A stretch of DNA of 34,903 nt from a virus. The position numbers were made by a program, and so were the translations under genes. Below the pieces are notes generated by a model. The model did no database searches. It saw only the letters and a program-made list of their open reading frames with translations, and was not told where the DNA came from. Within the stretch, counting starts at the first letter, position 1. Each line of letters opens with the position of its first letter. Below, piece after piece: positions 128-34,903 of this stretch. Location of the stretch: the IMG/VR virus record IMGVR_UViG_3300022187_000010; one strand, given 5' to 3'.

Positions 128-302
128 ATACTTTAGATTTTTCAGTTGTATAAGTCTCAAACCCAAAATTTAACAACCATTCTTCTGTAAGTGGTATTCC
201 ATTATAAATATCTGCAAACTTTACTTTTGCATTTAATCCAATTTTAACTACACCTAAAGTGTCTTGGACAAAATTACCAATTCTTAATTCATTTGCTTTC
301 AT
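1..302 (-). CDS. Hypothetical protein, N-terminal part of a 115-aa ORF that wraps the circular junction (continues at 34776..34731)
   Basis: ATG at 302-300 overlaps the upstream stop (TAATG). Manual translation gives MKANELRIGNFVQDTLGVVKIGLNAK...HIKHVHTLQ with no stop to base 1. Joined length is 348 nt, which is 116 codons. Confidence 0.7.
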   Translation of the reverse strand, partial: MKANELRIGNFVQDTLGVVKIGLNAKVKFADIYNGIPLTEEWLLNFGFETYTTEKSKVYKLGNFMVTYVLKGRFAGNKYLKAFNISFSEFGHIKHVHTLQ

Positions 303-12943: not shown

Positions 12944-12975
12944 ACTTATAAATATAATATCGTGTTATTGTAACT
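12944..12975 (-). promoter_or_regulatory. Conserved promoter-like element, copy D: AGTTAC-N13-TATATTTAT-AAGT
   Basis: Same element and spacing as the other copies. It overlaps the stop of the upstream gene and abuts ATG 12943. Confidence 0.55.
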
Positions 12976-15205
12976 ACTCTACTACTGTTGCTTGTGATTG
13001 TATTTGGCTAATCCCTTGTTGGGTACTTGTTATATCGCTCTCTACTACTACCACTTTATTAACCTCTCTTTCTGGTTGTCCGTTGCCTATTAGTGTACTA
13101 CCGTTCTGTACTGCGTTAATAGGTACTCCTGCACCTGCTACTCCTCCACCAGCAGACGATGATAGGTTAGATACGTTAGGGCTTGGCCTTTTTAATAGTG
13201 CTGCTGCTTGTGCCATGTTGGCTAGTATAGTCGCTATACCGCTTGCAAACTGCGCTGCACCTGCGCCACCTACCGTAACAGCGTTTAATGGGTTTGCTTG
13301 TGATGCTGCTACCAATGCACTAATTGCTTTTGCTGTATCTATTGCTATCTGTGCTAGTGCAAATGCTTTTTGTATCTTTTCAGCTTTTTGACTATCCTTT
13401 ATTGCTATTTGAGTTAAACTAGATAAACCTGCTACTGTGCTTTCTGCTACACTTAACTTAGCATCTCTAGTGTCTTTCTCTAACTGTATATCTTTTAGCT
13501 TTTGATCTGTGTTTGCTGCATCCTCTTCATCTCTATACTTTTTGTTGATTGCTGCTAGTTCTTCTTTCTGAGCTTTCTCAAGTTCCGCAGTATCTAACCC
13601 GTATTGTTTAGCTATTTCTATTAACCTAAAATACTTATCTTGTACCTGTGTTATTTCCCTTTCTTCATTACTAAGACTTTTTTGGTACCTCTCTTCATCT
13701 AGTTGTTCTAGTTCATTCTGAAATTCTTGCTGTTGCTCTCGTTCTCTTTGCCTTCTTTCTCTTTCTCTTGCTAGTCTATCTTCTTCCTTTTTATTTTCCT
13801 TCTCTTCTTTTTTCTTTCTATCGTCTTCGGCTTTTTTGTCTGCAGCTTCTTTTGCTTTCCTTGCCTCTTCTGCTGCTCTTTTAGCTGCGTCATTACGCCT
13901 CTTGTCTTCCTTTATTTGGTTTAATTCTCTAGTCTGGGCGGCTTCCTTGCTCGCTTCCTCAACCTCGTCTAATTCCTTCTGCTTTTGATCTATTCTATAT
14001 TGAGAGACTTGTTGGTATGCATTAAACTCTTGTTTGCCATTTCGTGTCCAAATTTCAACTGATTGCCCAGCTGACTTTTCTAATTGCTCCTTCTCAAAAG
14101 CTATTTGATCTTGTAGTGCTTCTTTTTGCCTTGCAAGTGAATCTAATACATACCCTAGTTTCTCCTGCTCTACATCAAATGTAGCTTGACCTGCTGCTTG
14201 TAGTTTGGCTATCTCAAAATCATACGCATCACTTCTTGCTTGTCGCTTCTCTTGCTCTGCTTGTATAACGGCATCTGTTTTTTTACGCTCCTCTGCTACA
14301 ACTGCCTGTCTAGCCTTATCTGCTGCATCGGCTTGTGCTTTTGCTGCTCTCTCTGCTGCGCTTGGTATAAGCCCTAGATTTGCTGCTACTTCTTCTACTG
14401 CATCTGATACAAAATCAAAGGCATCTATTAACGGCTGTAGTATCGGCATTACCACCGACTTAATCTTATCACTAAAGGCAATAAATCCTGCTACTAGCAA
14501 TCCTATGGCTGTTACAATCAATCCAATAGGGTTGGCACTCATCGCCACGTTTAAAACCCTCTGCGCTACCGCTGCCTTATTAGTCCACAATGTTTTAGCC
14601 TTAGTTAAGGCTAACATCGCTTTCTCTTTAGCTTCTTTAGCAACAAGTACAAGGGTAGATTCTTTTTCTAAGTTTTTACGTATGGTTTCAATCCCTACTA
14701 ACGCTGCTTGTGCGCCTTGAAGTTTTACTAATGTCTGTTGTAACTCTTCATTCTCTACACCCATCATTGCAGTTATACCCTGAAAAGCTGTAAACCCACC
14801 TAATACAGAAGTACCTAAATCTAATGCTGCTTGGAGTTTATATCCATCATTCGCAAGTCGCTTAGTTTCGTTCTGAATATCTACATACCTATCTCTTAAT
14901 TGTGCAGCTTCTTGTAATGCTTTTTTACCTACTGGCGTATTTCTACCCGCTTCTAATGCTATCGCTTGATACTCTTGTATCTGTTGATTCATTTTACGGA
15001 CATTGATAGGGGCTTCTTTAACTGTTTTATTTAGTTGATTTAACCTTTGCTCAAATGACTGTTCACTTTTCTCTGCTTTCTTCGTTTCCTCGTTTAGTTC
15101 TTTCGTTTCTTTAGAAAGACTATCCATAGCCTGAGCCATTTCCTTTGCAGAAACTTGAGCCTGTTTAGTGTTAAAGTCTAATTCTATTCCTATCTTCTTA
15201 GCCAT
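12974..15205 (-). CDS. Tape-measure-like protein (long coiled coil with central TM segments and a Gly/Ala-rich C-terminus)
   Basis: 743 aa. Hydrophobic core NPIGLIVTAIGLLVAGFIAF, a K/E/R-rich coiled coil, and an Ala/Gly-rich tail. Confidence 0.55.
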   Translation of the reverse strand: MAKKIGIELDFNTKQAQVSAKEMAQAMDSLSKETKELNEETKKAEKSEQSFEQRLNQLNKTVKEAPINVRKMNQQIQEYQAIALEAGRNTPVGKKALQEAAQLRDRYVDIQNETKRLANDGYKLQAALDLGTSVLGGFTAFQGITAMMGVENEELQQTLVKLQGAQAALVGIETIRKNLEKESTLVLVAKEAKEKAMLALTKAKTLWTNKAAVAQRVLNVAMSANPIGLIVTAIGLLVAGFIAFSDKIKSVVMPILQPLIDAFDFVSDAVEEVAANLGLIPSAAERAAKAQADAADKARQAVVAEERKKTDAVIQAEQEKRQARSDAYDFEIAKLQAAGQATFDVEQEKLGYVLDSLARQKEALQDQIAFEKEQLEKSAGQSVEIWTRNGKQEFNAYQQVSQYRIDQKQKELDEVEEASKEAAQTRELNQIKEDKRRNDAAKRAAEEARKAKEAADKKAEDDRKKKEEKENKKEEDRLARERERRQREREQQQEFQNELEQLDEERYQKSLSNEEREITQVQDKYFRLIEIAKQYGLDTAELEKAQKEELAAINKKYRDEEDAANTDQKLKDIQLEKDTRDAKLSVAESTVAGLSSLTQIAIKDSQKAEKIQKAFALAQIAIDTAKAISALVAASQANPLNAVTVGGAGAAQFASGIATILANMAQAAALLKRPSPNVSNLSSSAGGGVAGAGVPINAVQNGSTLIGNGQPEREVNKVVVVESDITSTQQGISQIQSQATVVE

Positions 15206-18201: not shown

Positions 18202-19436
18202 TATCTTCTTTGTCTATAATTATTCCAAGCTAAGTTAACAGTCATTTCTAAGTTAAATGTCTTGTCAATTATGTTCTGCTTTTCTTCATAAGTATTGAGG
18301 TCGATATCTGCGACCGCAACCAATGTGCCATCTGGATATTCACAGTAGATTATAGGACTATCAAATAACTCTCTCAGCCAAATGCTCTCAGCTTCTGTTA
18401 TCCAGTTACTTGTTATTCTAATTGCTTTGTTAGTTTGTGTGTGATATGAGCGTCTTTGGTGTTTGGTTAAGTTTCTAGTCACTGCATCTTCTGAACGTGT
18501 ATAACCATGTGTCATGTAGTTAGATTGTTCTTTCGACCAGTTAATCTTATGAACTAAATCAAACGCAAAACTATCAAAACCACCAAGCTCGTTAATGAAA
18601 TGAAGTGTATATCTATCAAAACCAGTACACGTTAAATCCCTTGTGTATGTTCTTAGCTCACTTGTTCTTGTTATACCATTGTCAAACGTCTGCACGTCAT
18701 AAGAGGCTACATCTGCATCTAAGATAGGTAATGCACCACTATTTACAGTAACGCCCGTCACATCGTTTAAATTAGCACCTACTGGAAATCTAACATGGTT
18801 GTCTGTATAACTACCACCACCCCTATATGGATTGCTAAACAAAAATAGCCCGTTTAATGTACCCGTACTATCGTACGTTCTTACTCTTACTCTATCTAAA
18901 TATACTGTACTGTTATCGTTGTACATATAAAGCCATGCATTCATGTCGCTTGGGATTGTCCTATTAACTGGTGCGTTAGTTAAGAACTTGGTCAGTGCGC
19001 TTGAATTATTATAGTAGTCTGTATAATCAAATCCTATATAATCCTCATACTCTAAAGAACCATTAATAACTTCTAAAGTTTCTGATGTAGCAAGTCCGCT
19101 AAAATCTGTTATCACTCCGCTGACATCATATTGCTCTCCAAAGTCTACGTAAACCTCTGCAATTGAGTTAGGGTTATTTTTAATGCTGTCATCGTTTAAC
19201 GCTGTATCAAAGTCAAAGGTAAGGTAAGATTCTATAATACTTGCAATATCTATAAAGCCATTAGAGTAGTTAGGATCTGCTGGTGTAAGGTATCTATGTC
19301 TCTTAACACCGTTAACATAAACATCTGAAATAAACTTAAATGATGTCTCACTTGTATTGGTTGAACTAAGGACATAATCAATAGGATTATAAGCCGTAGC
19401 CATTCCAGTTACTTGTTGGTCTATTGTTATTGCCAT
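18201..19436 (-). CDS. Tail structural protein
   Basis: 411 aa, with TAATG coupling on both sides to virion genes. Confidence 0.5.
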   Translation of the reverse strand: MAITIDQQVTGMATAYNPIDYVLSSTNTSETSFKFISDVYVNGVKRHRYLTPADPNYSNGFIDIASIIESYLTFDFDTALNDDSIKNNPNSIAEVYVDFGEQYDVSGVITDFSGLATSETLEVINGSLEYEDYIGFDYTDYYNNSSALTKFLTNAPVNRTIPSDMNAWLYMYNDNSTVYLDRVRVRTYDSTGTLNGLFLFSNPYRGGGSYTDNHVRFPVGANLNDVTGVTVNSGALPILDADVASYDVQTFDNGITRTSELRTYTRDLTCTGFDRYTLHFINELGGFDSFAFDLVHKINWSKEQSNYMTHGYTRSEDAVTRNLTKHQRRSYHTQTNKAIRITSNWITEAESIWLRELFDSPIIYCEYPDGTLVAVADIDLNTYEEKQNIIDKTFNLEMTVNLAWNNYRQRR

Positions 19437-19969
19437 TACTTGTCGTATTGTTTTACTATTAACTCCGCTAGTTCATCTATTAATGATTGAACCTCTGGAG
19501 AATCTATTGTATTACTAGCCCACTTAGTAGCCTTAATACCTTTGTAGAATATTGACCGAGCAACTGCAAACGGGCTTATCCCTCTACTGTCTGCGTATTG
19601 CCTTAGTGATTGACCTCCTATTGTGCTTACGTTTGTAGGTGGCATCTTGTCAGTGTACGCAAAGTCTCTACCATATCCTAACTCGATTCCTAATGATTGC
19701 CCCGACTTAGTTCCTGCAACACCCGCGTCTTGATAACTACCATATTCTTCCCACTCAATCTCTAGCACATATCCGTTATCTGTTTCCTTAATAGGCAGAA
19801 CGGGTGCAATAGACTGCTGTAAATAACCGCTATTGTCTGGTGCGTTTCTTTGCAATGCTTGGACTAATCTGTTAGCCACCTCTTTAATAGATAGTTTAGC
19901 AGCATCGTTTATCTGTGCTGCTACCTCTCTTCCTAGTTCATTAAGCTGGTCTAATCCTTTAACCCCCAT
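19436..19969 (-). CDS. HK97 gp10-like neck or tail-completion protein
   Basis: 177 aa. The pattern RNAPDNSGYLQQSI ... YQDAG is typical of the gp10 family. Confidence 0.55.
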   Translation of the reverse strand: MGVKGLDQLNELGREVAAQINDAAKLSIKEVANRLVQALQRNAPDNSGYLQQSIAPVLPIKETDNGYVLEIEWEEYGSYQDAGVAGTKSGQSLGIELGYGRDFAYTDKMPPTNVSTIGGQSLRQYADSRGISPFAVARSIFYKGIKATKWASNTIDSPEVQSLIDELAELIVKQYDK

Positions 19970-21542: not shown

Positions 21543-22745
21543 TTATCTAATAATATAAACACCGCTTTGTTTTTTACTTAGTTTTCTTTCAGCAATATAT
21601 CTTAAGGAATCTAATATATGATTATAGTCGTCTATTGGCTTATCCTTATATTTGTTAGTTGAGTAGTCTTTCATCCATACGTAATTTTTAAGCTCTTTAA
21701 TTGCGTTCTCACTTCTCTCCGTTACGTTTATCTTATACCTCTGTACTATGTCTATGGTGGCTCTTATACTGTCCTGCCCTTTTACGGATGGGTGTATATT
21801 AAAGCCTTCTAGTTTTATTTCTCTTATACTCTTAGGCTCTGCGCTATCCGCTACTATTTCCTTGCTCTGTGTTATACCTAACCTTAGAAGTCTCTTAGCT
21901 ATATCCTGGTTAGTCATTCCCGTTTCATAACATAACTCATCTAGCCATATTTGACCATCTGCAAACACTACCCTTATAATTGTTGTAGGGTCGTTAGTGA
22001 ATCCAAAATCAATCCCGTATACTTCCCATTGATACTCGGTAGGCATCTTCTTACACTCTGCCCAATTAGTAAATACAACACCTTCACGTCTTGACCTCTT
22101 ACCTAGTCCGTATACTTCCCACTTAAACTCATCTGCTGTGCCTGCTATTATGTTCTTATCCGTAGGCTCATAACTTAATATCTTCTTCTTAACCTCTTCT
22201 GGTGCAAACTCATTATCAAATACGGTACTGTGAATATACACTACATCGTCACGCTTTAATACGTTGTCGTATATCCAATGTTCATCTGTTGATGGGTTGT
22301 AATCCATTATCCACTTACCCTTACATCTTTGCTCTAGTTGGTCGAAATCATCCTTAGTCGCTTCTATTGCTTCGTTGATCCAGAATATATCAGTCTCTAC
22401 ACCATGTATCTTTTGGGGGGTGTCTAGTCCTCCAAATGTTAACTCGTTATTATTCCATTCGTATCTAAATGGATTCTTTGTAAAGTGAATTGGTAAGCCT
22501 ATTGATTGTATTACATTCTGCATAGTGGCCAGTACTGACATTCTAATCCATGTGTACTTTTGCCTTGCAACCATTATAGTTAAACCCTCATTCTGATAAC
22601 CGTATAGTATTAATGCTTGTGCTATGCTCCATGACTTGCTAGATCGTGATCCACCCTCCAATACAATGCCACGTACTTTAGGGTCGTTTATTGCTGCCCA
22701 TAGTTTCTGAAATACATCAGTAGTATGTACTTTATGCTTTGCCAA
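21543..22745 (-). CDS. terL: Terminase large subunit (PBSX/Terminase_3-like)
   Basis: 400 aa. Walker A-like GGSRSSKSWS near the N-terminus. Nuclease-half acidic motifs (YGIDFGF, ADSAEPKSI, DSLRY). TTG start, with an in-frame TAG 15 nt (five codons) upstream of it. Confidence 0.85.
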   Translation of the reverse strand: MAKHKVHTTDVFQKLWAAINDPKVRGIVLEGGSRSSKSWSIAQALILYGYQNEGLTIMVARQKYTWIRMSVLATMQNVIQSIGLPIHFTKNPFRYEWNNNELTFGGLDTPQKIHGVETDIFWINEAIEATKDDFDQLEQRCKGKWIMDYNPSTDEHWIYDNVLKRDDVVYIHSTVFDNEFAPEEVKKKILSYEPTDKNIIAGTADEFKWEVYGLGKRSRREGVVFTNWAECKKMPTEYQWEVYGIDFGFTNDPTTIIRVVFADGQIWLDELCYETGMTNQDIAKRLLRLGITQSKEIVADSAEPKSIREIKLEGFNIHPSVKGQDSIRATIDIVQRYKINVTERSENAIKELKNYVWMKDYSTNKYKDKPIDDYNHILDSLRYIAERKLSKKQSGVYIIR

Positions 22746-22857
22746 ATTTTCGTATCTGTTCTACTATACCTTTAGAGTAGCGCTTTAATAGTCTTTCGTT
22801 AACCTCATCACTTACAACCGCCGCAAACTTATTTCTTTTCAATTTTTCTAAGCTCAT
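22732..22857 (-). CDS. Possible 41-aa small ORF bridging the sulfotransferase and terL genes (MSLEKLKRNKFAAVVSDEVNERLLKRYSKGIVEQIRKFGKA)
   Basis: ATG at 22857. It is open across the otherwise unassigned 83-nt gap and overlaps both neighbours. It is below the ORF-track cutoff. Confidence 0.25.
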   Translation of the reverse strand: MSLEKLKRNKFAAVVSDEVNERLLKRYSKGIVEQIRKFGKA

Positions 22858-23350
22858 AGATGCCGTTGTTTATTTTCTCTGATTCAACATCTATAAAGTT
22901 TGGGTATTCGCTGAATTTGTGTTTTATCTTTAAACCCAATGCGTCTGCAATTTCTTTTTGAACCTTATCGGGATGGTGGGTTAACTCTTCAAAATGTACA
23001 ATATGTGTAATGTGTTTTTTGTATTTAACCATTTGATCTTCTACATCGTTGTATCTTTTCTCTGGGACATAACCATTATCCGATTTTAATACATCCGCTT
23101 TATTCCTATGGATGTGTAGTATCTTAACGTCATTATCTTTTATTAGCTTAATTGCTTCCTTTATAAAGTCATTATCAACCCCAATACTGAATATCTGTTT
23201 TGCGTTTCTTTTTGCCACATCGTATTCACTCTCTAAAAACCTTTTTAAAGACATTTCATCAACTGCTACACTCAAACCCTCAAAAGCATTCATTAAACGT
23301 CTTAGAAGCGTTGTTCCCGTTTTTGCACAACCTGTTATGTAAACCCTCAT
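22829..23350 (-). CDS. PAPS-dependent sulfotransferase-family protein
   Basis: 173 aa. 5'-PSB-like loop GCAKTGTTLL, 3'-PB-like HRNKADVLKS, and the family-typical VHFEELTHHPDKVQKEIADALGL. Confidence 0.7.
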   Translation of the reverse strand: MRVYITGCAKTGTTLLRRLMNAFEGLSVAVDEMSLKRFLESEYDVAKRNAKQIFSIGVDNDFIKEAIKLIKDNDVKILHIHRNKADVLKSDNGYVPEKRYNDVEDQMVKYKKHITHIVHFEELTHHPDKVQKEIADALGLKIKHKFSEYPNFIDVESEKINNGIYELRKIEKK

Positions 23351-23955
23351 TTAAATCTGTGAAACGGTGTAACACTATACTTATCTTTTAAGTCTGTAAT
23401 CTCTACCATTGATGAGTTTATAGTGATTGACTTATAATTCACTTTATCAAGTCGCTTAGTTAGGCAAAAATCAAGACCGTTATTAATTTGTCCAGTCCAT
23501 AGTAACCAGTCTAACTTATCCATTAGGCTTCTCGATAGACATCTTCCTGCACCTGCACTCTCTCCTCTTCTGTGATTAGTGTATCCTTTCCAATGTATTC
23601 TCTCGCCAGTCTTTAAGTCTTGTACATAGATATCGCTTATACCTATAAACTCATAACCTTGCAGCAGGTAAGTCTTATAGTTCTCACTTCCCTTAATCAT
23701 GTCATCACTCCCTAATATTAAGAACGCATCTGCGTCACTATACTGTTTCAAGAAATTTACACCCGCCTGCCATTTATTAGATAACGGAAAATTAGGAGCA
23801 TGGATATAATCTATCTGTCTGTTTATACAAAAGTGTCTATCTTTCTTCGTACTGACAACCATTAAACACTTAAGGCCTTCATCATACCATGAATCTAATG
23901 CCAATGATACTGCCTCATGGCGACCATACATTGCGCTTAATACTTGTATCTTCAT
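23347..23955 (-). CDS. GT-A-fold glycosyltransferase-like protein
   Basis: 202 aa. PLSNKWQAGVNFL...DAFLILGSDD (DxD-type motif). ATGA coupling to the sulfotransferase gene. Confidence 0.5.
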   Translation of the reverse strand: MKIQVLSAMYGRHEAVSLALDSWYDEGLKCLMVVSTKKDRHFCINRQIDYIHAPNFPLSNKWQAGVNFLKQYSDADAFLILGSDDMIKGSENYKTYLLQGYEFIGISDIYVQDLKTGERIHWKGYTNHRRGESAGAGRCLSRSLMDKLDWLLWTGQINNGLDFCLTKRLDKVNYKSITINSSMVEITDLKDKYSVTPFHRFK

Positions 23956-23987
23956 CTTATATTAGTTATTAACTGGATTATCTAAAC

Positions 23988-24731
23988 TCATAACTCAATC
24001 TTTTTAGGTGGCGCAACATAGAAGTTATTAGTCTTAGCGTATTTAAGGAGTTCCTTTTTCTCTACCTCTGTGTTATGTCTTAGCCACTTGTCTTTAAACT
24101 TCCTATACTCTGTGCTATTGTCCTTCCAGCTTGAGGTTAAATGTATGCTTTTTAGCATTTCAATTGGTGGCAAGTAGTAGGACTTATATCCACTTGCGTT
24201 TATTCTAAAGTTCCAATCACTATCCCAACGTCCATACATCTTGTACTCCTCATTGATAAAACCTACTTTGTCTAGTAGTTTAGTTGAGAAGAACCAACAC
24301 CCATACACGTTATCTGAATGCTGCAAAGGTACTTGTTCAATCATCTCTAAGTTACGCTCTTGTCTATACCCCCAGTCATAACCTAAAAACCCTTTTAACT
24401 TGCATCTACTGTATATACTTTCAGATAGTGCTAGCCAGTTATTAGGTAGTACAATATCAGGGGCAATCATAGCCACGTAGTCATACCCTTGTTCTTTTAC
24501 CCTTAATAGCATTTGATTATAAGCTACTGGGTTGCCTACGTTCTCTTCTGAATAGTGCAGAAACTTTGGCTCAAAGGATTTAACAAGGTCTTTTATACGG
24601 TCGTTCTTACTTCCGTTATCCCATATAAACAAATCGTAGTCTTTACCTGCATTGCTTAACGTAACACCTAAGCCCATCTTTGCTTTGTGGTATTCATTCA
24701 TGGTGTTACATATTACTGCTATCTTACTCAT
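23988..24731 (-). CDS. Family-2 glycosyltransferase
   Basis: 247 aa. LFIWDNGSKND and AMIAPDIVLPNNW match the GT2 nucleotide-sugar binding and DxD-equivalent regions. Confidence 0.7.
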   Translation of the reverse strand: MSKIAVICNTMNEYHKAKMGLGVTLSNAGKDYDLFIWDNGSKNDRIKDLVKSFEPKFLHYSEENVGNPVAYNQMLLRVKEQGYDYVAMIAPDIVLPNNWLALSESIYSRCKLKGFLGYDWGYRQERNLEMIEQVPLQHSDNVYGCWFFSTKLLDKVGFINEEYKMYGRWDSDWNFRINASGYKSYYLPPIEMLKSIHLTSSWKDNSTEYRKFKDKWLRHNTEVEKKELLKYAKTNNFYVAPPKKIEL

Positions 24732-24736
24732 TAATT

Positions 24737-24744
24737 CAAATATA
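24737..24744 (-). promoter_or_regulatory. -7-type box TATATTTG located 5 nt before the GT2 start codon
   Basis: Matches TAnnTTTG, and TATATTTGAATT is shared with the box at 27633..27626. No correctly spaced -33 TTG is present. Confidence 0.3.
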
Positions 24745-24846
24745 TTCTATTCATGTCAAACATAACTACATTTCCTTTAATAAACAAATGAACACCCTCT
24801 ATACTATGACTTACATTGTAAGATAAGATAGGTAAGTATTCTACTG

Positions 24847-25896
24847 CTATTCCCCATTCCCACATAGAGACTTGTAAAACTCTTCCCTTACTTTCGCTTC
24901 TTTCAATATATCGTAGTTCTCTAATACATCTTTATTTAATCTATTTGCTAATGTCGCTACTAAGTCTCTATCTTCACTTAATCTCTTTACTGCTTCATAC
25001 CATCCCTTACCTCCATCACACAGTATACTGTTATCTTCATTACATACATTCGTAAAAGGCTCTTGATTACTTGCTACTAAAGCACACATCATAAACCCAG
25101 CTTCTAAGGCTTTTAATTCACTCTTACTTTGTGTAAACTCATCTTTGTATAATGGTGCCAGACAAACATCTATATGGTTATACATCTGACCGTAGCAATT
25201 AACGTCTAAAGCTGGTATTACATCAAAGATATTACTAGCACCAGCGCATGACATAAAACTCGCTATCTTGTTGTTCTCTTCACCAGGTGCCCATCCACCG
25301 TAGTGAAGTTCCACGTTTGGTAACTCCCCTATCTTGCAAAGCTCATCTGCAATCATCTCCATATCCTTGACATGGTCCTTTGCGCCTATAAACCCTACTC
25401 TTAACTTATCGCTAGGTGTTTTAAACTTCATCCATTGCACGCTGTTGTAATCTACTGCGTTCTTAACTACTTGGACATTCTTATTGTAAGGCTTTATAGA
25501 CTTCTCTAAATAAGGCGTTGAAACTGTTATCGCATCGGCTGCCTTTGCTGCCTCTATTTGTCTTAATCTAAATCCTTTTTGCTCAAACTCTTTATACAGT
25601 CCATGATATTTAGGCAATCTCCATGCGTCGTCATAATCCATTACCAACTTAGCACCAGACTTCTTAATAGCATCTAATATATCCTTAGTGTTATCCTTAT
25701 CCTTTGTCTTAGATAGCATCCTAGAAAATACTACTATATCGTATTCGCTTAACTCTTCATGTATGTTACTAGGTGCATTGTCTAATGTCGGGGTAAAGTT
25801 AACCTCAAAATCTTTCTCATTCAAATACTGATGGGGTGTAAGTCTATACATATCTACACCTGAGTACTGTGGGTTTATAACTAATACTTTAATCAT
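24847..25896 (-). CDS. GT-B-fold (GT1/GT4-like) glycosyltransferase
   Basis: 349 aa. The C-terminal SKSELKALEAGFMMCALVASN resembles the GT4 E-x7-E / EAxAxG region. Confidence 0.6.
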   Translation of the reverse strand: MIKVLVINPQYSGVDMYRLTPHQYLNEKDFEVNFTPTLDNAPSNIHEELSEYDIVVFSRMLSKTKDKDNTKDILDAIKKSGAKLVMDYDDAWRLPKYHGLYKEFEQKGFRLRQIEAAKAADAITVSTPYLEKSIKPYNKNVQVVKNAVDYNSVQWMKFKTPSDKLRVGFIGAKDHVKDMEMIADELCKIGELPNVELHYGGWAPGEENNKIASFMSCAGASNIFDVIPALDVNCYGQMYNHIDVCLAPLYKDEFTQSKSELKALEAGFMMCALVASNQEPFTNVCNEDNSILCDGGKGWYEAVKRLSEDRDLVATLANRLNKDVLENYDILKEAKVREEFYKSLCGNGE

Positions 25897-26335
25897 TCTT
25901 AATATCTCCCTTACCGTTTATAATTTCTATCTGTATCTTCTCTTGTGGCTTGTCGTCGTCTTTAGGCTCATTTCTCATGCCTAATCTGTTCTTTGCGTAG
26001 AAAATACCCTTACCCTCATTCGCTACAATGTCCTCTGCTAATGACTTAAATAATTTATCTATCCTTTTTATAGTGTTAAACTTTTCTTTGTTGCTTTCGC
26101 CCTCTCTCTCATCGTTTAACCAATTATAATAGGTCACCCTGCTAATAGTCGGCTTACCCTTTTTGACTACCCATATCCTTAGAAAGTACTCTACTGTTGG
26201 AATGTGTCTATCCCTTATATCAATAGTCTTATACTGTGCTACTACCTCTTTGGTGTTTTCTAAGCACTCGTCTATGTATTGGTAGGCTAGTTCTTCTAGT
26301 TCATAGGGTGTTATGTCTGTGTAGGGTTTAGCCAT
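25889..26335 (-). CDS. terS: Terminase small subunit
   Basis: 148 aa counted from ATG 26335; the track's TTG at 26341 is less likely. IPTVEYFLRIW...TYYNWL and NEGKGIFYAKNRLGMRNE match the small-terminase (gp3/Terminase_2-like) pattern. Confidence 0.6.
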   Translation of the reverse strand: MAKPYTDITPYELEELAYQYIDECLENTKEVVAQYKTIDIRDRHIPTVEYFLRIWVVKKGKPTISRVTYYNWLNDEREGESNKEKFNTIKRIDKLFKSLAEDIVANEGKGIFYAKNRLGMRNEPKDDDKPQEKIQIEIINGKGDIKND

Positions 26336-26531
26336 TGTCAAGCTCTCTTATTAATCTAACGTATTTAGGTATTACCGTATTTAGTAAGCAACTACCACAA
26401 CCTCCTACGTGTTCTCCTGTCTCTCTCACATAAGCCTTTCTTAGTTCCTGGTTTATGTTTCCTTTGGATGCTGTGTTATTAGCATGACATTGGAGTATGT
26501 AGTCTCTATGTTTAATTGCTAGTTCTTTCAT
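26328..26531 (-). CDS. Hypothetical Cys-containing small protein
   Basis: 67-aa ORF with TAATG coupling upstream. Confidence 0.55.
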   Translation of the reverse strand: MKELAIKHRDYILQCHANNTASKGNINQELRKAYVRETGEHVGGCGSCLLNTVIPKYVRLIRELDNG

Positions 26532-27435: not shown

Positions 27436-27464
27436 AAAACCCCCACAAAATTCATTGCAGGGGC
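27436..27464 (-). terminator. Stem-loop plus U4, 50 nt upstream of the sigma-factor ATG
   Basis: Minus strand reads CCCCTGCAA-TGAATT-TTGTGGGG, 9 bp including two G-U pairs, followed by GTTTTG. Confidence 0.45.
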
Positions 27465-27557
27465 TTAATAGATAAATAATAAAACTAATTAAGAAATGAA
27501 TACTTGAGAACTCATTGCTTTGATAGGTGCTAATATACTACTTTATTTTTAATAAAC

Positions 27558-32276: not shown

Positions 32277-32878
32277 TACAATACGCTTTTATTAATAGTT
32301 TGACCTTGTGAATTTACAAACGTGTTAGAACTTGCTTTAGGTTTAACCTTGTTTTCTTCTTTAAACCAAACGCTACGCATCTTCTGTTTCCAATTCTTAA
32401 CCACGTTTCCTTTACTGTCCGTCCACTTTCGCTTACCGCCAGTCAATGACGCATTATAATAGTCAAATGCTTTCTTAGCACTTTCTTTTGTATAACCGTT
32501 ATCTAAAAAATACTCTTCAACCAAACTTAAAGGAGGTGGAAAGGATGGGTCTAATTCCCCTTCCCCTTTCTCTTGTTCTTCTTCTTCCCCTTGTTCTTGT
32601 TGTGAAGGGTCTTGACTACCCCCTTGCGAAGGGTCTTGGCTAGGGTGCTTCAAAGCTACGCCAGTCTTATCTTCAAAGCCTTTTACACTTTTATCTATTG
32701 CGTGTTGTTGAGATGTATATGCAAAGTCTGCCATGTCAGATAATTCTTTTGGCTCAACTCCATAAAACATTCTCTCCATTAATGCTTCAATGAACTGTTT
32801 TTTGTCTTTATCGTGTTTAAGCTTATTGTAAACATCGTAATAAGACTTCAAGAAATTAAATGCTTTTCGATTACTCAT
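32276..32878 (-). CDS. Replication-module protein of unknown function with an acidic low-complexity linker
   Basis: 200 aa. Two folded-looking ends are separated by SQDPSQGGSQDPSQQEQGEEEEQEKGEGE. TAATG coupling to the primase-helicase. Confidence 0.55.
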   Translation of the reverse strand: MSNRKAFNFLKSYYDVYNKLKHDKDKKQFIEALMERMFYGVEPKELSDMADFAYTSQQHAIDKSVKGFEDKTGVALKHPSQDPSQGGSQDPSQQEQGEEEEQEKGEGELDPSFPPPLSLVEEYFLDNGYTKESAKKAFDYYNASLTGGKRKWTDSKGNVVKNWKQKMRSVWFKEENKVKPKASSNTFVNSQGQTINKSVL

Positions 32879-33663
32879 ATCTCTTGAATAGTAAAAGGTT
32901 TAAAGTTTTGGCTCTTTAAGTAAGGCTTACAAACAGTCTTATTTCTAACATGTTTAATTGCGGTCGTAGTACTTATAATCTTTAATAAGTCTGGATCTGT
33001 ATAATTTTTATAATAAGAAACTTTACCTGTTTCTATTTCTACCACTTTCAAACCTTTGCACTTTCTTGTTTTGATTCCCTTTATTTTTCTTTCCTTTTCC
33101 CAAACGCATGACTTACATGTATTCCTTTCATGTCTAAACTCGTTCGGTTTTTTAAAAACATTACAACAAATACACTTTTTCTCTATTATGCACCCATCTT
33201 TTATTTTAGCAGTATTCAGCGTGTGTTTAGAGAATTTAGGTCTAATTCTATCTAAGTGAGACATTTTTCCGCTATCCGTGGTTAACCTAAGCACCTCACT
33301 CATATCGCCTATTTTTAGATTATCTAAACTATTGTTTTTCCAGTTGTTGTCTCTATGTACAACATAGTACTCTGGCAAGCAATCTTTATTATAGTTAAAT
33401 GAAAAGAAAACAAGCCTAGATACTTGAAATCTTTTACATATACCTCCTACGCATAATGTAGCCACAAGGGAGGAATCACCCATAGATTGTTTTAATATTC
33501 TTTCTCTTACCCATCTTTCCCCGCCTCCATTAGCCTGCACGTATCTTCCAACACTCTTAACCCTGCCAAGATTAGACACTTCATATATACCGTCAAAACC
33601 TATAACATCAATCCATTCCTCTCCATGCAGCGATTCTAAATCAAGTTTTTTATAATATTCCAT
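32875..33663 (-). CDS. Free-standing HNH homing-type endonuclease (NUMOD4 plus HNH_3)
   Basis: 262 aa. EEWIDVIGFDGIYEVSNLGRVKS (NUMOD4) and VVHRDNNWKNNSLDNLKIG (HNH), plus a C-terminal Cys cluster. Confidence 0.75.
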   Translation of the reverse strand: MEYYKKLDLESLHGEEWIDVIGFDGIYEVSNLGRVKSVGRYVQANGGGERWVRERILKQSMGDSSLVATLCVGGICKRFQVSRLVFFSFNYNKDCLPEYYVVHRDNNWKNNSLDNLKIGDMSEVLRLTTDSGKMSHLDRIRPKFSKHTLNTAKIKDGCIIEKKCICCNVFKKPNEFRHERNTCKSCVWEKERKIKGIKTRKCKGLKVVEIETGKVSYYKNYTDPDLLKIISTTTAIKHVRNKTVCKPYLKSQNFKPFTIQEI

Positions 33664-33809: not shown

Positions 33810-34448
33810 TTAACTAAATAATTCACCTTGTTTATTATTATTGTGGTTGTATATACCTCTTGCTATGTCAAATATGTGTTGACCTACTTCATAGTCTACC
33901 AAGTTACGAGCTATCTTATCCTTTCGCTGTGTTCCTTTATATCCGCTTAAATCAATCTTATGGAACTTCTCTAACTCTTTACGTTTTGCGTGTATAAAAT
34001 TTTCTGCTTTACGTCCCTTGAATCCTGGTATTTTAAAGTTAGACCAAAACAAATGCCTGCCTATTTCTTTGGCTTGTATAAGCGGCTCATAGTAAGGTAC
34101 GACATTTTCAACCACCCACTTACCCTTAAAAAAATGTTCTAAAAATATAATCTCTTGGTATAGTTTCATGTCGGGATAACTTGCGGGAGACTTTCTCTCT
34201 CCCTCCCCTGTGTTCGTTTTTCTCATTCTACTATGTGTCGGACATGGAGGACTAGACCATATAAAATCAAATTCTTTATAGTGATCTAACAAGTATTGAT
34301 GTGCGTCTGCTACCACTACCTTGTCGTTAGGGAATCTTTCCTGGTACATCCTAGCTAACTCAGGGTCTAACTCTACTGCTGTTACCTCGCAGTTATCCCA
34401 TAGCAATCTATTACCACCTAGACAAGCGTATAAATTAAGTACTTTCAT
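33810..34448 (-). CDS. Very short DNA (cytosine-5)-methyltransferase-like protein
   Basis: 212 aa. Motif I LYACLGG, motif II VELD, motif IV SSPPCPTHS, motif VI VVENV and motif X-like ARNLV. Only about 55 aa lie where a target-recognition domain is expected. Confidence 0.7.
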   Translation of the reverse strand: MKVLNLYACLGGNRLLWDNCEVTAVELDPELARMYQERFPNDKVVVADAHQYLLDHYKEFDFIWSSPPCPTHSRMRKTNTGEGERKSPASYPDMKLYQEIIFLEHFFKGKWVVENVVPYYEPLIQAKEIGRHLFWSNFKIPGFKGRKAENFIHAKRKELEKFHKIDLSGYKGTQRKDKIARNLVDYEVGQHIFDIARGIYNHNNNKQGELFS

Positions 34449-34731: not shown

Positions 34732-34903
34732 TACTTCCTAATTTGTAATTCTTCACCAGTCAAAGCAAAGTATAAATTTTGTAAAGTGTGGACGTGCTTG
34801 ATGTGTCCAAACTCACTAAACGATATATTGAATGCTTTTAAATATTTATTACCAGCAAACCTACCTTTTAAAACATAAGTAACCATGAAGTTGCCTAGTT
34901 TGT
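34731..34903 (-). CDS. C-terminal part of the junction-spanning 115-aa ORF (see 1..302)
   Basis: Ends ...NLYFALTGEELQIRK with TAA at 34733-34731, overlapping the next ATG (TAATG). Bases 34777-34903 duplicate 1-127. Confidence 0.7.
   Translation of the reverse strand, partial: KLGNFMVTYVLKGRFAGNKYLKAFNISFSEFGHIKHVHTLQNLYFALTGEELQIRK
34777..34903. repeat. Terminal direct repeat copy 2 (identical to 1..127)
   Basis: Exact 127-nt identity with the left end. Confidence 0.95.

What the first reader, a model, noticed from the sequence alone, without database searches (positions are those of the whole stretch)
22746..25896. Glycosyltransferase and sulfotransferase island inserted between the small and large terminase genes
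TerS (25889..26335) and TerL (21543..22745) are normally adjacent. Here about 3 kb separates them. It encodes a GT-B glycosyltransferase (24847..25896), a GT2 glycosyltransferase (23988..24731, DNGS motif), a GT-A-like protein (23347..23955, LGSDD) and a small sulfotransferase. The sulfotransferase (22829..23350) has both PAPS-binding signatures, GCAKTGTTLL and HRNKADVLKS. The last three genes are translationally coupled or closely spaced. They are preceded by a 115-nt gap carrying a TATATTTG box 5 nt before the GT2 ATG, so they may be an independently expressed cargo unit. The set of three sugar transferases plus a sulfotransferase suggests assembly of a short sulfated glycan. No membrane or export components (flippase, polymerase, undecaprenyl-phosphate transferase) are present, and no nucleotide hydroxymethylase or kinase typical of DNA hypermodification. 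That points to a soluble target. Candidates are virion proteins made from the same late transcript, or a host surface or cytoplasmic acceptor. I am not aware of phage-encoded sulfation of a glycan as a characterised system.
Basis: partly seen in the sequence, partly recalled or inferred. Interest (0 to 1): 0.78.

Follow-up and report, generated by a model that had tools for sequence, protein, structure and literature searches.

The report
Phage sugar-and-sulfate island beside terminase
A small, complete phage genome carries three soluble sugar-adding enzymes and a miniature sulfate-adding enzyme between its two DNA-packaging genes; this looks like a kit for making a short sulfated sugar chain, a chemistry never demonstrated for any phage, and what it decorates is still unknown.

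Summary
All six ORFs exist on the minus strand at the stated coordinates. TerL, the GT-B and the 173-aa sulfotransferase pass Pfam thresholds. AlphaFold2 plus Foldseek places the 173-aa protein among PAPS sulfotransferases and the 202-aa protein among GT-A glycosyltransferases. The "TerS" has no profile hit and is inferred from position.

The window is a complete circular assembly of 34,776 bp. It has no ThyA homolog, TET-type dioxygenase, integrase, nucleotide-sugar gene or membrane/export gene.

The island is not a recent insertion. It matches genome GC and recurs across a clade down to 79% TerL identity. GT-B and GT2 form a fixed core. The GT-A, sulfotransferase and a hexapeptide acyltransferase are gained or lost at gene boundaries.

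The sulfotransferase belongs to a ~175-aa family that is mainly viral. In 38 other non-redundant loci the upstream gene is a glycosyltransferase in 21 of 34 cases. Downstream genes are often sugar epimerases, and once an APS kinase.

Best reading: late cytoplasmic assembly of a short sulfated glycan, most likely on virion proteins (acceptor inferred, about 0.4). The rivals are a host envelope glycan and DNA. No paper in the searched library characterises a phage sulfotransferase. I rate it a new variant of phage glycosylation, interest about 0.62.

The parts
25889..26341 (-). Small terminase candidate (150 aa; TTG start at 26341, ATG at 26335), overlapping the GT-B start by 8 nt
   Evidence: ORF. 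It has no Pfam, PHROG, NCBIfam or PDB hit. It belongs to a ~145-aa family of at least 684 proteins, some from Bacteroidota MAGs. The same slot in L006 holds a Terminase_2 protein that shares the N-terminal MTMA and the last ~24 aa. A 60% homolog sits just upstream of TerL in L152.
24847..25896 (-). GT-B glycosyltransferase (349 aa), conserved core gene of the island
   Evidence: Pfam Glyco_trans_1_4 30.8 bits (cutoff 27); phrog_7162 glycosyltransferase 2.2e-41. It is 27-30% identical to glycosyltransferases in the four-GT clusters of Phapecoctavirus phages. It is present in every island variant whose contig reaches the slot. No TM segment.
24732..24846 (-). 115-nt non-coding gap with TATATTTG at 24737-24744, 5 nt before the GT2 ATG; a possible internal Bacteroidetes-type -7 promoter element
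   Evidence: Sequence. TATATTTG also lies upstream of ORF 26328-26531 (at 26548) and in the gap at 27626. The generic TAnnTTTG motif is not enriched (43 found, 45 expected). L006 has about 165 extra bases here.
23988..24731 (-). GT2-like (GT-A class) glycosyltransferase (247 aa, 'WDNGS'), conserved core gene
   Evidence: phrog_2456 glycosyltransferase 2.7e-8 and phrog_26327 4.2e-12. PDB sequence hit to chondroitin synthase K4CP residues 119-188, E 3.4e-4. 24% identical to an annotated glycosyltransferase beside the capsid gene of podovirus MW202801. No Pfam hit.
23347..23955 (-). Second GT-A glycosyltransferase (202 aa, invariant LGSDD at 81-85), a variable module whose stop overlaps the ST start
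   Evidence: No Pfam or PHROG hit. Narrow family of 11 homologs. AF2 pLDDT 91.8. Foldseek hits K4CP 5.3e-8, ppGalNAc-T2, TarP and TarS with TMq 0.66-0.73. Precisely absent in L001, L003 and L006. Family members sit immediately upstream of ST homologs in L132, L139, L146 and L148.
22829..23350 (-). Minimal PAPS-type sulfotransferase (173 aa): 5'-PSB loop GCAKTGTT (7-14), 3'-PB R82...S90; a variable module
   Evidence: Pfam Sulfotransfer_3 35.9 bits (cutoff 27) and Sulfotransfer_1 28 bits (cutoff 22). G7 C8 A9 K10 G12 T13 T14 E32 K47 R48 R82 S90 R99 are invariant in 43 sequences. AF2 pLDDT 89.3. The top 16 Foldseek PDB hits are all sulfotransferases. In L004, L005 and L089 it is absent, and a hexapeptide acyltransferase precedes the GT-A gene.
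21543..22745 (-). Large terminase (400 aa, TTG start), 83 nt downstream of the ST stop
   Evidence: Pfam Terminase_3 2.9e-21 and Terminase_3C 8.7e-21; phrog_2 4e-40. Best cultured relatives are Parabacteroides and Phocaeicola phages at 34-36% identity.
27437..27466 (-). Strong intrinsic-terminator-like hairpin (12-bp stem plus T-run) that closes the early region; the transcription unit containing the island starts downstream of it
   Evidence: No comparable minus-strand terminator lies between here and TerL. The only other one (23736-23723) has a 5-bp stem and lies inside a coding sequence.

Best explanation
The island is a late-expressed, fully soluble glycan-building and glycan-tailoring cassette in a lytic phage. 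The host is probably a Bacteroidota bacterium.

**Proposed mechanism.** The island lies in the same terminator-free stretch as terS and terL, so it is probably co-transcribed with them. The GT-B and the GT2-like enzyme are the invariant core. Using host nucleotide sugars, they start and extend a short oligosaccharide. The 202-aa GT-A adds a further sugar. The 173-aa minimal sulfotransferase is translationally coupled to the GT-A. It transfers sulfate from host PAPS onto that glycan, most likely onto the sugar its partner GT adds.

**Variation.** In sister phages the tailoring end of the cassette differs: with or without the GT-A, and with the sulfotransferase or a sugar-type hexapeptide acyltransferase. 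The same backbone would therefore end up sulfated or acylated.

**Acceptor.** The most likely acceptor is a phage-made soluble macromolecule present in the cytoplasm late in infection, namely virion structural proteins. This would parallel mycobacteriophage capsid and tail-tube glycosylation. It would give particles an anionic, variable glycan coat.

**Shown versus inferred.**
- Shown: gene content, folds, cofactor motifs, modularity and neighbourhood statistics.
- Inferred: co-transcription, order of action, PAPS use, the sulfated product and the acceptor.
For: **Enzyme identities.**
- Pfam and PHROG hits.
- The ST model has pLDDT 89.3 and only sulfotransferases among its top 16 PDB fold hits.
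- The GT-A model has pLDDT 91.8 and best fold matches to K4CP, ppGalNAc-T, TarP and TarS.
- The PAPS-binding residues K10/T13/T14 and R82/S90 are invariant in 43 homologs.

**Coupling of the ST to glycan chemistry.** I examined 38 non-redundant ST loci outside this clade.
- The immediate upstream gene is a glycosyltransferase in 21 of 34 cases: 16 Glycos_transf_2, 1 TOD1/MUCI70 and 4 of the GTA3 family.
- Of 35 downstream genes, 9 are NAD sugar epimerase/dehydratases, 3 methyltransferases, 2 GT2, 2 hexapeptide acyltransferases, 1 PIG-L deacetylase and 1 APS kinase (3.5e-47). APS kinase is the PAPS-making enzyme.
- A 30%-identical cellular homolog sits, overlapping a GT2 gene, inside a NeuB / cytidylyltransferase / PIG-L / UDP-glucose-dehydrogenase surface-glycan locus of a Pelagibacter MAG.
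- The GTA3-then-ST pair, with Hexapep and GT2, recurs near Terminase_3 TerL genes only 33-38% identical to the window's.

**Soluble proteins and late expression.**
- No island protein has a TM segment.
- The complete 34.8-kb genome has no flippase, polymerase, Und-P transferase, nucleotide-sugar gene or integrase.
- There is a strong terminator upstream at 27466-27437 and none before TerL.

**Evidence pointing to the virion.**
- The island sits in the packaging and structural operon.
- ST homologs lie between portal and Mu-F-like head genes (L104), after a minor-capsid-protein-2 gene (L121), and directly upstream of TerL in three other lineages, including crAss-like contigs (L092, L119, L123).
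- A GT2 homolog lies in a modification cluster right after the capsid gene in MW202801.
- Virion glycosylation by phage GTs is established in mycobacteriophages (Freeman et al. 2023, as cited in PMC12619734).

**Modularity.** Phages with 92-97% nucleotide identity in the flanks show precise gene-boundary gain or loss of the GT-A. They also show exchange of GT-A + ST for Hexapep + a divergent GT-A.
Against: - No acceptor is identified, and nothing in the sequence marks a glycosylation site on any virion protein.
- The closest cellular homolog of the ST works in a cell-surface glycan locus. GT2 and GT4-type enzymes commonly act on lipid-linked intermediates, so a host-envelope target fits the enzymology equally well.
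- Adjacency to terminase can simply reflect a hotspot for accessory genes. DNA-modifying GT clusters have also been reported next to terminase genes (bioRxiv 10.1101/2023.12.21.572611).
- The genome has a C5-methylase-like gene.
- The ST is unusually short (173 aa against about 250-300), its catalytic base is not assigned, and PAPS availability in the unknown host is assumed.
- The GT2-like protein has no Pfam hit and was not modelled.
- Three of the 38 outside ST loci show no recognisable GT as a flanking gene in spot checks (L093, L104, L121).
Confidence: 0.42

Rival explanations
1. Host-envelope remodelling. The soluble GTs and the ST act at the cytoplasmic face on the host's own lipid-linked LPS, capsule or glycoprotein-glycan intermediates. 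The host's flippase and ligase then export the product. The infected cell surface and debris acquire a sulfated or acylated epitope that blocks superinfection or stops progeny being lost on debris.
For: - The nearest cellular ST homolog lies in a nonulosonic-acid/GT2/UDP-glucose-dehydrogenase surface-glycan locus.
- ST neighbours in large phage contigs are typical O-antigen-type genes: epimerase/dehydratases, rhamnosyltransferase and methyltransferases.
- Fold matches of the GT-A include TarP and TarS, which modify wall teichoic acid. TarP is prophage-encoded (my background knowledge, not shown by a tool).
- The cyanophage literature interprets similar gene sets as cell-surface modification (PMC12801897).
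- Swapping sulfate for an acyl group resembles serotype conversion.
Against: - No integrase or lysogeny module was found in the complete genome.
- Classic seroconversion enzymes (GtrA/GtrB/Gtr*, Oac) are membrane proteins, and none is present. No island protein has a TM segment.
- The island is in the late packaging operon. That leaves little time for export and surface display before lysis.
- ST homologs recur inside head and packaging modules.
Confidence: 0.23
2. DNA hypermodification. The GTs attach a mono- to tri-saccharide to a modified base in phage DNA around the time of packaging, and the ST sulfates that sugar. This would protect the genome from restriction.
For: - Phage GT-A and GT-B enzymes are known to build mono- to tri-saccharides on 5hmC. 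Such clusters have been seen next to terminase and structural genes (bioRxiv 10.1101/2023.12.21.572611).
- Arabinosylated 5-hydroxycytosine occurs in RB69 and DLP3 (PMC13326640).
- The window encodes a C5-cytosine-methylase-like protein at 33810-34448 (PF00145, 36.8 bits).
- The island and several ST homologs abut terminase genes.
- Module swapping would also suit an arms race with restriction systems.
Against: - The known DNA-glycan routes reviewed here need a hydroxyl-bearing base. It is made by a thymidylate-synthase homolog or by a methylase plus a TET-type 5mYOX dioxygenase.
- The complete genome has neither. Every ORF of at least 80 aa was scanned with Pfam and/or PHROGs.
- None appears within about 5-8 kb of the ST in the ten ST-homolog loci with precomputed Pfam annotation.
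- The methylase-like ORF is short (212 aa, motifs I, IV and VI only) and lies about 8 kb from the island.
- The phage has no DNA polymerase of its own.
- ST neighbours include GDP-mannose-dehydratase-type and nonulosonic-acid-type genes, which are typical of glycan rather than DNA pathways.
- The DNA-glycan preprint does not mention any sulfotransferase.
Confidence: 0.08
3. Uncoupled functions. The sulfotransferase acts on a non-carbohydrate acceptor, such as a protein tyrosine (like TPST or RaxST) or a small molecule. The GTs work independently of it.
For: - TPST structures are among the sequence and fold matches.
- In the L104 cluster the ST sits alone between portal and Mu-F-like genes. In L093 no GT is recognisable nearby.
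- The family is a minimal scaffold with little acceptor-binding elaboration (173 aa).
Against: - 21 of 34 upstream neighbours are GTs, and most downstream neighbours are sugar-modifying enzymes.
- In the window the ST start overlaps the GT-A stop. The GTA3-then-ST pair is conserved in contigs whose ST is only 30-39% identical.
- The TPST matches cover mainly the generic PAPS-binding loop.
Confidence: 0.1

Closest known systems
Mycobacteriophage virion glycosylation (Freeman et al. 2023, Cell Host Microbe; known here only through citing papers)
   Same: Phage-encoded soluble glycosyltransferases, sometimes with a tailoring enzyme (a methyltransferase). They have no export machinery. They decorate capsid and tail-tube subunits in the cytoplasm, and the genes lie in or near the structural module.
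   Different: No sulfotransferase is involved. The phages are actinobacteriophages with unrelated GTs. Here the acceptor is not demonstrated, the genome is a ~35-kb uncultured phage with a probable Bacteroidota host, and the island lies specifically between terS and terL.
Phage DNA glycan hypermodification clusters (T4 alpha/beta-GT; MT + 5mYOX + GT clusters of Pyle et al., bioRxiv 10.1101/2023.12.21.572611; 5hoC arabinosylation, PMC13326640)
   Same: Multiple soluble GT-A and GT-B enzymes in a phage build mono- to tri-saccharides using host nucleotide sugars. They are sometimes adjacent to terminase or structural genes.
   Different: Those systems require a ThyA homolog or a methylase plus TET-type dioxygenase to create the acceptor hydroxyl. 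This complete genome has neither. No sulfation has been reported in them.
PAPS-dependent sulfotransferases (Pfam Sulfotransfer_1/Sulfotransfer_3: cytosolic SULTs, TPST, and bacterial carbohydrate sulfotransferases such as Stf0/Stf1 and NodH; the carbohydrate examples are from my own knowledge apart from Stf1 = PDB 2zq5)
   Same: The 5'-PSB loop (K-T-G-T-T), the 3'-PB Arg/Ser pair and the P-loop-like alpha/beta fold. Fold matches are to SULT7A1, SULT1E1 and TPST2.
   Different: It is only 173 aa, about 60% of a normal sulfotransferase (TM normalised to target 0.3-0.4). The acceptor-binding elaborations are missing. It has no NCBIfam model. The family is mostly viral: 55 loci in IMG/VR against 5 in 185,579 species genomes, using near-identical search patterns.
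Sulfotransferase genes annotated as auxiliary genes in marine phages (for example OM43 phage MVGs and Synechococcus phage S-SRM01; PMC10580990)
   Same: Phage-borne Sulfotransfer_3-type genes from marine viromes, with function explicitly described as unclear.
   Different: Those reports list the gene without context. Here the gene is shown to be part of a conserved, modular GT cassette with quantified GT and APS-kinase neighbourhood links.
Serotype-converting phage systems (GtrABC, Oac) and prophage TarP
   Same: Phage-encoded glycosylation or acylation that creates variable glycan epitopes. TarP is a fold match for the 202-aa GT-A.
   Different: Those are carried by temperate phages and use membrane proteins or act on wall polymers. 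This genome has no integrase and no membrane component.

Membership tests
PAPS-dependent sulfotransferase superfamily (173-aa ORF) | 5'-phosphosulfate-binding loop (K-[ST]-G-T-T type) | tested here: met
   GCAKTGTT at residues 7-14. G7 C8 A9 K10 G12 T13 T14 are invariant in 43 homologs. The Pfam Sulfotransfer_3 match covers it. It is not a Walker A motif, because no K/[ST] follows the second Gly.
PAPS-dependent sulfotransferase superfamily (173-aa ORF) | 3'-phosphate-binding motif (Arg ... Ser, as in RNxxDxxxS) | tested here: met
   RNKADVLKS at residues 82-90, with R82 and S90 invariant. The Sulfotransfer_1 match spans residues 3-126.
PAPS-dependent sulfotransferase superfamily (173-aa ORF) | Sulfotransferase fold | tested here: met
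   AF2 pLDDT 89.3 and pTM 0.87. Foldseek PDB ranks 1-16 are all sulfotransferases (E 2.4e-5 to 2.8e-3, TMq 0.50-0.59). Kinases appear only from rank 17.
PAPS-dependent sulfotransferase superfamily (173-aa ORF) | Catalytic base (His or Glu) and full-length acceptor-binding domain | tested here: inconclusive
   Invariant E32 is a candidate base, but it was not placed structurally. The protein is about 100 residues shorter than solved sulfotransferases (TMt 0.31-0.39).
PAPS-dependent sulfotransferase superfamily (173-aa ORF) | PAPS-dependent sulfate transfer activity | not testable with these tools
   Only indirect support: one homolog (L145) is followed by an APS kinase gene (3.5e-47).
GT-A fold glycosyltransferase (202-aa ORF) | GT-A Rossmann-like fold with a DxD-type metal and nucleotide-sugar motif | tested here: met
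   AF2 pLDDT 91.8. Foldseek hits K4CP 5.3e-8, ppGalNAc-T2, TarP and TarS with TMq 0.66-0.73. Nucleotidyltransferases of the same superfold score lower (TMq 0.46-0.55). LGSDD at 81-85 is invariant in 12 sequences.
GT-A fold glycosyltransferase (202-aa ORF) | Membership of a curated GT sequence family (Pfam/NCBIfam) | tested here: not met
   No Pfam, PHROG or NCBIfam hit. It is a GT-A by fold only, in a small family of its own (11 homologs).
GT2 family (247-aa ORF) | Sequence match to GT2 profiles | tested here: inconclusive
   No Pfam hit at E <= 1. It matches phrog_2456 'glycosyltransferase' at 2.7e-8, K4CP residues 119-188 at 3.4e-4 and TIGR01556 rhamnosyltransferase far below cutoff.
GT-B / GT4-like glycosyltransferase (349-aa ORF) | Match to the Glycos_transf_1-type C-terminal domain | tested here: met
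   Glyco_trans_1_4 30.8 bits against a cutoff of 27, residues 166-309. phrog_7162 at 2.2e-41 over residues 10-339.
Small terminase subunit (150-aa ORF) | Match to a TerS profile or structure | tested here: not met
   No hit in Pfam, PHROGs, NCBIfam or PDB sequences.
Small terminase subunit (150-aa ORF) | Small ORF immediately upstream of TerL in the packaging operon, positionally interchangeable with a bona fide TerS | tested here: met
   The L006 slot holds a Terminase_2 protein (1.6e-15) with the same N-terminal four and C-terminal ~24 residues. A homolog lies 274 nt upstream of TerL in L152.
Phage DNA glycan hypermodification cluster | Enzyme that creates the acceptor hydroxyl on a base (ThyA-type hydroxymethylase/hydroxylase, or C5-methylase plus 5mYOX/TET dioxygenase) | tested here: not met
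   The complete genome was scanned ORF by ORF. There is no ThyA homolog and no 2OG dioxygenase. Only a short C5-methylase-like ORF is present.
Serotype-converting phage glycan modification (Gtr/Oac type) | Membrane-embedded transferases and a temperate lifestyle | tested here: not met
   The island proteins have no TM segment. No integrase or repressor module was detected in the genome.
Phage virion glycosylation system (mycobacteriophage type) | Phage-encoded soluble GTs expressed with structural genes | tested here: met
   Three soluble GTs lie inside the packaging and structural transcription unit.
Phage virion glycosylation system (mycobacteriophage type) | Glycans covalently attached to capsid or tail subunits | not testable with these tools
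   This requires virions and mass spectrometry.

The most novel reading that the evidence does not exclude
Phages can sulfate their own virion glycans. On this reading, a viral family of minimal (~175-aa) PAPS sulfotransferases, always recruited next to glycosyltransferases, gives particles an anionic sulfated glycan coat. Near-identical phages swap sulfate, acyl and extra-sugar modules at the terS-terL junction, producing different virion 'serotypes'. This would be the first sulfated glycoconjugate made by a virus of bacteria. It would also give a function to sulfotransferase genes scattered through marine viromes.
Probability: 0.35. Interest if true: 0.82.

Novelty: new variant of a known kind. 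Interest (0 to 1): 0.62.

Why it matters
**What is known and what is missing.** Phage-encoded glycosylation is known for DNA, host O-antigen and, recently, mycobacteriophage virions. Sulfation is not known for any of them. Papers that list sulfotransferase genes in marine phages say their role is unclear (PMC10580990).

**Why this case is tractable.** It is a complete 35-kb genome with a four-gene island. Natural sister genomes lack the GT-A, or carry an acyltransferase where this one has the sulfotransferase. That gives built-in controls of +80 Da against +42 Da. The ~175-aa sulfotransferase family has at least 154 clusters at 50% identity and clear gene-neighbourhood rules.

**What would follow if the product is a sulfated virion glycan.**
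- Particle charge, stickiness to marine polysaccharide gels or mucus, and recognition by hosts or grazers could all change.
- Infection would draw on the host's activated-sulfate pool.
- The minimal sulfotransferase could also be a useful compact enzyme scaffold.

Tried and rejected
**Searches that found nothing.**
- Megablast of the region against 50,697 phage records: no match.
- tblastn of the ST and of the 202-aa GT-A against the same collection: no match. No cultured relative carries them.
- NCBIfam gave nothing for four of the five island and TerS proteins.
- PDB sequence searches were uninformative for the GT-B (spurious WD40 hit) and for TerS.

**Promoter and terminator scans.**
- The sigma-70 promoter scan showed fewer sites than shuffles (20 against 25), so it was not used.
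- The generic Bacteroidetes TAnnTTTG motif is not enriched. I therefore treat the internal-promoter idea as weak.

**Ideas rejected.**
- The 173-aa protein as a P-loop kinase: the loop lacks the Walker lysine position, and kinases rank below all sulfotransferases in the fold search.
- A recent horizontal insertion: GC is 0.33-0.375 against 0.362 for the genome, and the island is conserved across the clade.
- The sulfotransferase and the acyltransferase as strict alternatives: they co-occur in L132, L139, L146 and L148.
- The chondroitin-like reading suggested by the K4CP matches: such matches are generic for GT2-type GT-A domains.

**Papers not held in the library.** Iyer et al. 2013 (NAR), Freeman et al. 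2023 and the journal version of Pyle et al. 2024.

**No link found.** Allelic variation in the gp10-like protein (19436-19969) does not track island type.

Full report

| Gene | Coordinates | Size |
|---|---|---|
| TerS candidate | 25889-26341 | 150 aa |
| GT-B | 24847-25896 | 349 aa |
| GT2-like | 23988-24731 | 247 aa |
| second GT-A-like | 23347-23955 | 202 aa |
| sulfotransferase (ST) | 22829-23350 | 173 aa |
| TerL | 21543-22745 | 400 aa |

- The GT-B start overlaps the TerS end by 8 nt. The ST start overlaps the GT-A stop by 4 nt.
- A 115-nt gap precedes the GT2 gene. It contains TATATTTG 5 nt before the ATG.
- TerL is solid: Terminase_3 and Terminase_3C at about 1e-21.
- The ST passes both Pfam sulfotransferase thresholds, and the GT-B passes Glyco_trans_1_4.
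- The GT2-like protein has only PHROG glycosyltransferase hits and a weak hit to the chondroitin synthase K4CP nucleotide-binding region.
- The 202-aa protein and the TerS candidate have no profile hits at all.

**2. Fold-level tests**

An alignment of 43 homologs of the ST shows that the residues expected to hold PAPS never vary. These are the 5'-phosphosulfate loop G7-C-A-K10-x-G12-T13-T14 and the 3'-phosphate pair R82/S90. E32, K47, R48 and R99 are also invariant.
- The AlphaFold2 model is confident (pLDDT 89.3).
- Its 16 best Foldseek matches in the PDB are all PAPS sulfotransferases (SULT7A1, SULT1E1, SULT1B1, TPST2 and others). Nucleotide kinases come only after them.
- The protein is a stripped-down sulfotransferase. 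It covers only about a third of its structural neighbours' TM-score when normalised to their length.

The 202-aa protein also models confidently (pLDDT 91.8).
- It is a GT-A glycosyltransferase by fold. Its best matches are K4CP, ppGalNAc-T2, TarP and TarS (TM 0.66-0.73).
- Nucleotidyltransferases of the same superfold match less well.
- Its LGSDD is invariant in the family and is the expected DxD-type motif.

**3. The TerS question**

The 150-aa ORF belongs to a large family of ~145-aa proteins with no annotation. There are 684 hits, several from Bacteroidota MAGs. Three observations make it a small terminase by position:
- In the ~97%-identical relative L006, the same slot holds a Terminase_2 protein (1.6e-15). 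It begins with the same MTMA and ends with the same ~24 residues as the window ORF. The shared tail is plausibly the part that contacts TerL.
- L003 carries a third allele, 50% identical, with the same ends.
- A 60% homolog in an unrelated contig lies 274 nt upstream of a Terminase_3 TerL.

In a 40%-TerL relative (L028), a 111-aa helix-turn-helix-looking ORF (my reading of the sequence; not profile-tested) overlaps the TerL start, with no island. The statement that about 3 kb separate genes that are otherwise adjacent is therefore reasonable.

**4. The whole genome is in hand**

The first and last 127 bases of the window are identical. The window is therefore a circularly closed assembly of 34,776 bp.

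Every ORF of at least 80 aa was scanned with Pfam and/or PHROGs.
- Present: primase-helicase, a NinG-like nuclease, two HNH nucleases, an exonuclease, protease, capsid, portal and tape-measure candidates, and two lysins.
- Absent: thymidylate-synthase homolog, TET/JBP or other 2OG dioxygenase, DNA polymerase, integrase, nucleotide-sugar synthesis genes, flippase, polymerase, and undecaprenyl-phosphate transferase.

It has motifs I, IV and VI only (PF00145, 36.8 bits).

None of the island proteins has a hydrophobic segment.

A strong terminator (12-bp stem) at 27466-27437 closes the early region. No comparable terminator follows before TerL. The island is therefore most simply read as part of the late packaging and structural transcript. 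This is an inference.

**5. The island is old and modular, not a fresh insertion**

Its GC (0.33-0.375) matches the genome (0.362). IMG/VR relatives compared by tblastn and blastn fall into three types:

| Type | Gene order | Found in |
|---|---|---|
| A | GT-B, GT2, GT-A, ST, TerL | window, L002 |
| B | GT-B, GT2, ST, TerL | L001, L003, L006 |
| C | GT-B, GT2, hexapeptide acyltransferase, divergent GT-A (58%), TerL | L004, L005, L089 |

- In type B, window bases 23353-23996 are missing precisely.
- Type C extends to L089, whose TerL is 79% identical.
- The flanks are 92-97% identical at the DNA level, so whole genes were exchanged at gene boundaries.
- The acyltransferase resembles LpxA and NeuD/PglB/VioB-type sugar acyltransferases.
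- Contigs with TerL only 33-38% identical carry larger versions of the same toolkit near TerL: GT-A family, ST, Asn-synthase-like, Hexapep, GT2 (L139, L148).
- The 40%-TerL group shows no island homolog.

**6. What the sulfotransferase family does elsewhere**

A profile search of 1.84 billion representatives finds 154 clusters at E <= 1e-30. Most members are 170-230 aa.

Pattern scans find 55 loci in 2.9 million viral contigs, ranging from 4.5 to 192 kb. They find only 5 in one genome each of 185,579 species.

After removing near-duplicates, 38 loci outside this clade remain.
- **Upstream neighbours.** Of 34 scanned, 16 are Glycos_transf_2, 1 is a TOD1/MUCI70-type GT and 4 belong to the window's own GT-A family. 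That makes 21 GTs. One more is a UDP-GlcNAc 2-epimerase.
- **Downstream neighbours.** Of 35 scanned, 9 are NAD sugar epimerase/dehydratases, 3 methyltransferases, 2 GT2, 2 hexapeptide acyltransferases, 2 Asn-synthase-like, 1 PIG-L deacetylase and 1 APS kinase (3.5e-47). APS kinase is the enzyme that makes PAPS.

Individual contigs show rich clusters:
- GT1, two GT32-like, a Branch-type GT, GT2, ST, PIG-L, a second ST and GT2 (L081).
- GT2, methyltransferase, GT2, ST and GT2, plus two GDP-mannose-dehydratase-type genes and a rhamnosyltransferase (L083).

A cellular homolog in a Pelagibacter MAG overlaps a GT2 gene inside a NeuB / cytidylyltransferase / PIG-L / UDP-glucose-dehydrogenase locus.

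This is consistent guilt by association. The family sulfates sugars, usually the sugar added by the GT encoded just upstream.

**7. What is the acceptor?**

This is the step that is inferred, not shown.

*DNA.* The known DNA-glycan pathways reviewed here start from a hydroxyl-bearing base. That base is made by a ThyA homolog or by a methylase plus TET-type dioxygenase (bioRxiv 10.1101/2023.12.21.572611; PMC13326640). This complete genome lacks both, and so do the annotated neighbourhoods of ten ST homologs. I rate DNA at about 0.08. It is kept alive only by the methylase-like gene and the terminase adjacency.

*Host envelope.* This target fits the enzymology and the cellular homolog's context. 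It fits poorly with a phage that has no lysogeny genes, with purely soluble enzymes and with late expression. I rate it at about 0.23.

*Virion proteins.* This is the best fit, at about 0.4.
- The island is embedded in the packaging and structural operon.
- ST homologs recur inside head and packaging modules of unrelated phages. Examples are between portal and Mu-F-like genes (L104), after a minor-capsid-protein-2 gene (L121), and directly upstream of TerL in three other lineages, including crAss-like contigs (L092, L119, L123).
- A homolog of the GT2 lies in a modification cluster right behind a capsid gene.
- Cytoplasmic virion glycosylation by phage GTs has a precedent in mycobacteriophages (cited).
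- Swapping the tailoring genes between near-identical phages would then diversify an exposed surface.

**8. Comparison with what is known, and novelty**

Full-text searches found no paper that characterises a phage sulfotransferase or a sulfated phage glycoconjugate.
- The most explicit statement is that their function in phages 'remains unclear' (PMC10580990).
- Another paper cites a 2013 computational prediction of GT- and ST-based nucleotide modification. I could not read that paper.

The system works like a phage glycosylation cassette, which is a known kind, with an uncharacterised sulfation step and a clear modular architecture. I therefore file it as a new variant of a known kind.
- It is not a member of the DNA hypermodification clusters, because the defining feature was tested and not met.
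- It is not a member of Gtr/Oac seroconversion systems, for the same reason.
- Membership of the virion-glycosylation class cannot be tested without virions.

**9. Verdict**

The finding is real and its enzyme assignments are right.

Corrections:
- The island is a stable, clade-wide, modular feature rather than a recent insertion.
- The internal-promoter idea is weak.
- TerS is positional only.
- A C5-methylase-like gene exists elsewhere in the genome.

Interest is 0.62. A specialist would find a recurrent, phage-specific, minimal sulfotransferase wired to glycosyltransferases surprising. The natural module variants make the hypothesis directly testable. The chemistry and the acceptor are still unproven.

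Noticed in passing
window 1-127 and 34777-34903: Exact 127-bp terminal overlap. The window is a complete, circularly closed phage genome of 34,776 bp with every gene on the minus strand.
   Followed up: yes
window 33810-34448 (with 32875-33663): A short C5-cytosine-methylase-like ORF (212 aa; motifs I, IV 'PPC' and VI 'ENV' only, with the C-terminal half of a normal Dcm missing). After a 146-nt gap it is followed by a NUMOD4/HNH homing-endonuclease-like ORF. It is unclear whether the methylase is active, truncated or a distinct small family.
   Followed up: partly
window 25889-26341; L003 4668-5108; L006 6826-7302: The small-terminase slot is allelic among phages about 97% identical elsewhere. 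There are three different N-terminal and central domains: an unannotated ~145-aa family, a 50%-identical variant, and a Terminase_2 protein. All three share the same first four and last ~24 residues. This suggests that DNA-recognition domains are swapped on a constant TerL-binding tail.
   Followed up: partly
window 7505-9388: The portal-like protein (627 aa; weak Phage_portal match at 91-325) carries a C-terminal winged helix-turn-helix (HTH_24 at 467-511) and a further ~110-residue extension. This is unusual for a portal.
   Followed up: no
window 19436-19969; L001, L004, L049: The HK97 gp10-like tail-completion ORF is only 42% identical in relatives whose flanking genes are 95-98% identical. 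This is a second mosaic hotspot, independent of island type.
   Followed up: partly
L145 5980-7638 (IMG/VR 192-kb contig): A homolog of the small sulfotransferase is followed about 400 nt downstream by an adenylylsulfate (APS) kinase gene (3.5e-47). This phage brings its own PAPS-synthesis step.
   Followed up: partly
L123 1827-4303 (and L120, L122, L124-L126): In marine crAss-like contigs a 39%-identical sulfotransferase sits directly upstream of the TerL gene (42% identical to the TerL of uncultured phage cr114_1). Two of these contigs come from the same samples as the window's close relatives.
   Followed up: partly
L104 4182-7344 (and L103, L105, L106): Here the sulfotransferase lies alone between a portal gene and a Mu-F-like head-morphogenesis gene, and neither flanking gene is a glycosyltransferase.
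   Followed up: no
L094 6300-8663 (Ignavibacteriaceae MAG): The sulfotransferase domain occurs as the C-terminal part of a 787-aa protein. A few other fusions of 359-782 aa appear in the exhaustive search.
   Followed up: no
L081 462-12515 (TARA-derived 42-kb contig): An about 12-kb phage glyco-island with GT1, two GT32-like, a Branch-type GT, several GT2, two sulfotransferases and a PIG-L deacetylase between them. The deacetylase/sulfotransferase arrangement recalls N-deacetylase/N-sulfotransferase logic.
   Followed up: no
window 12974-15205: The tape-measure-like 743-aa protein has a long Lys/Glu/Arg-rich low-complexity stretch. It coincides with the strongest AT-skew excursion in the genome (-0.47 at 13-14.5 kb).
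   Followed up: no
window 302-694 and 3860-4321: Two separate peptidoglycan hydrolase genes (Glucosaminidase and Amidase_2) lie at the end of the late region.
   Followed up: no
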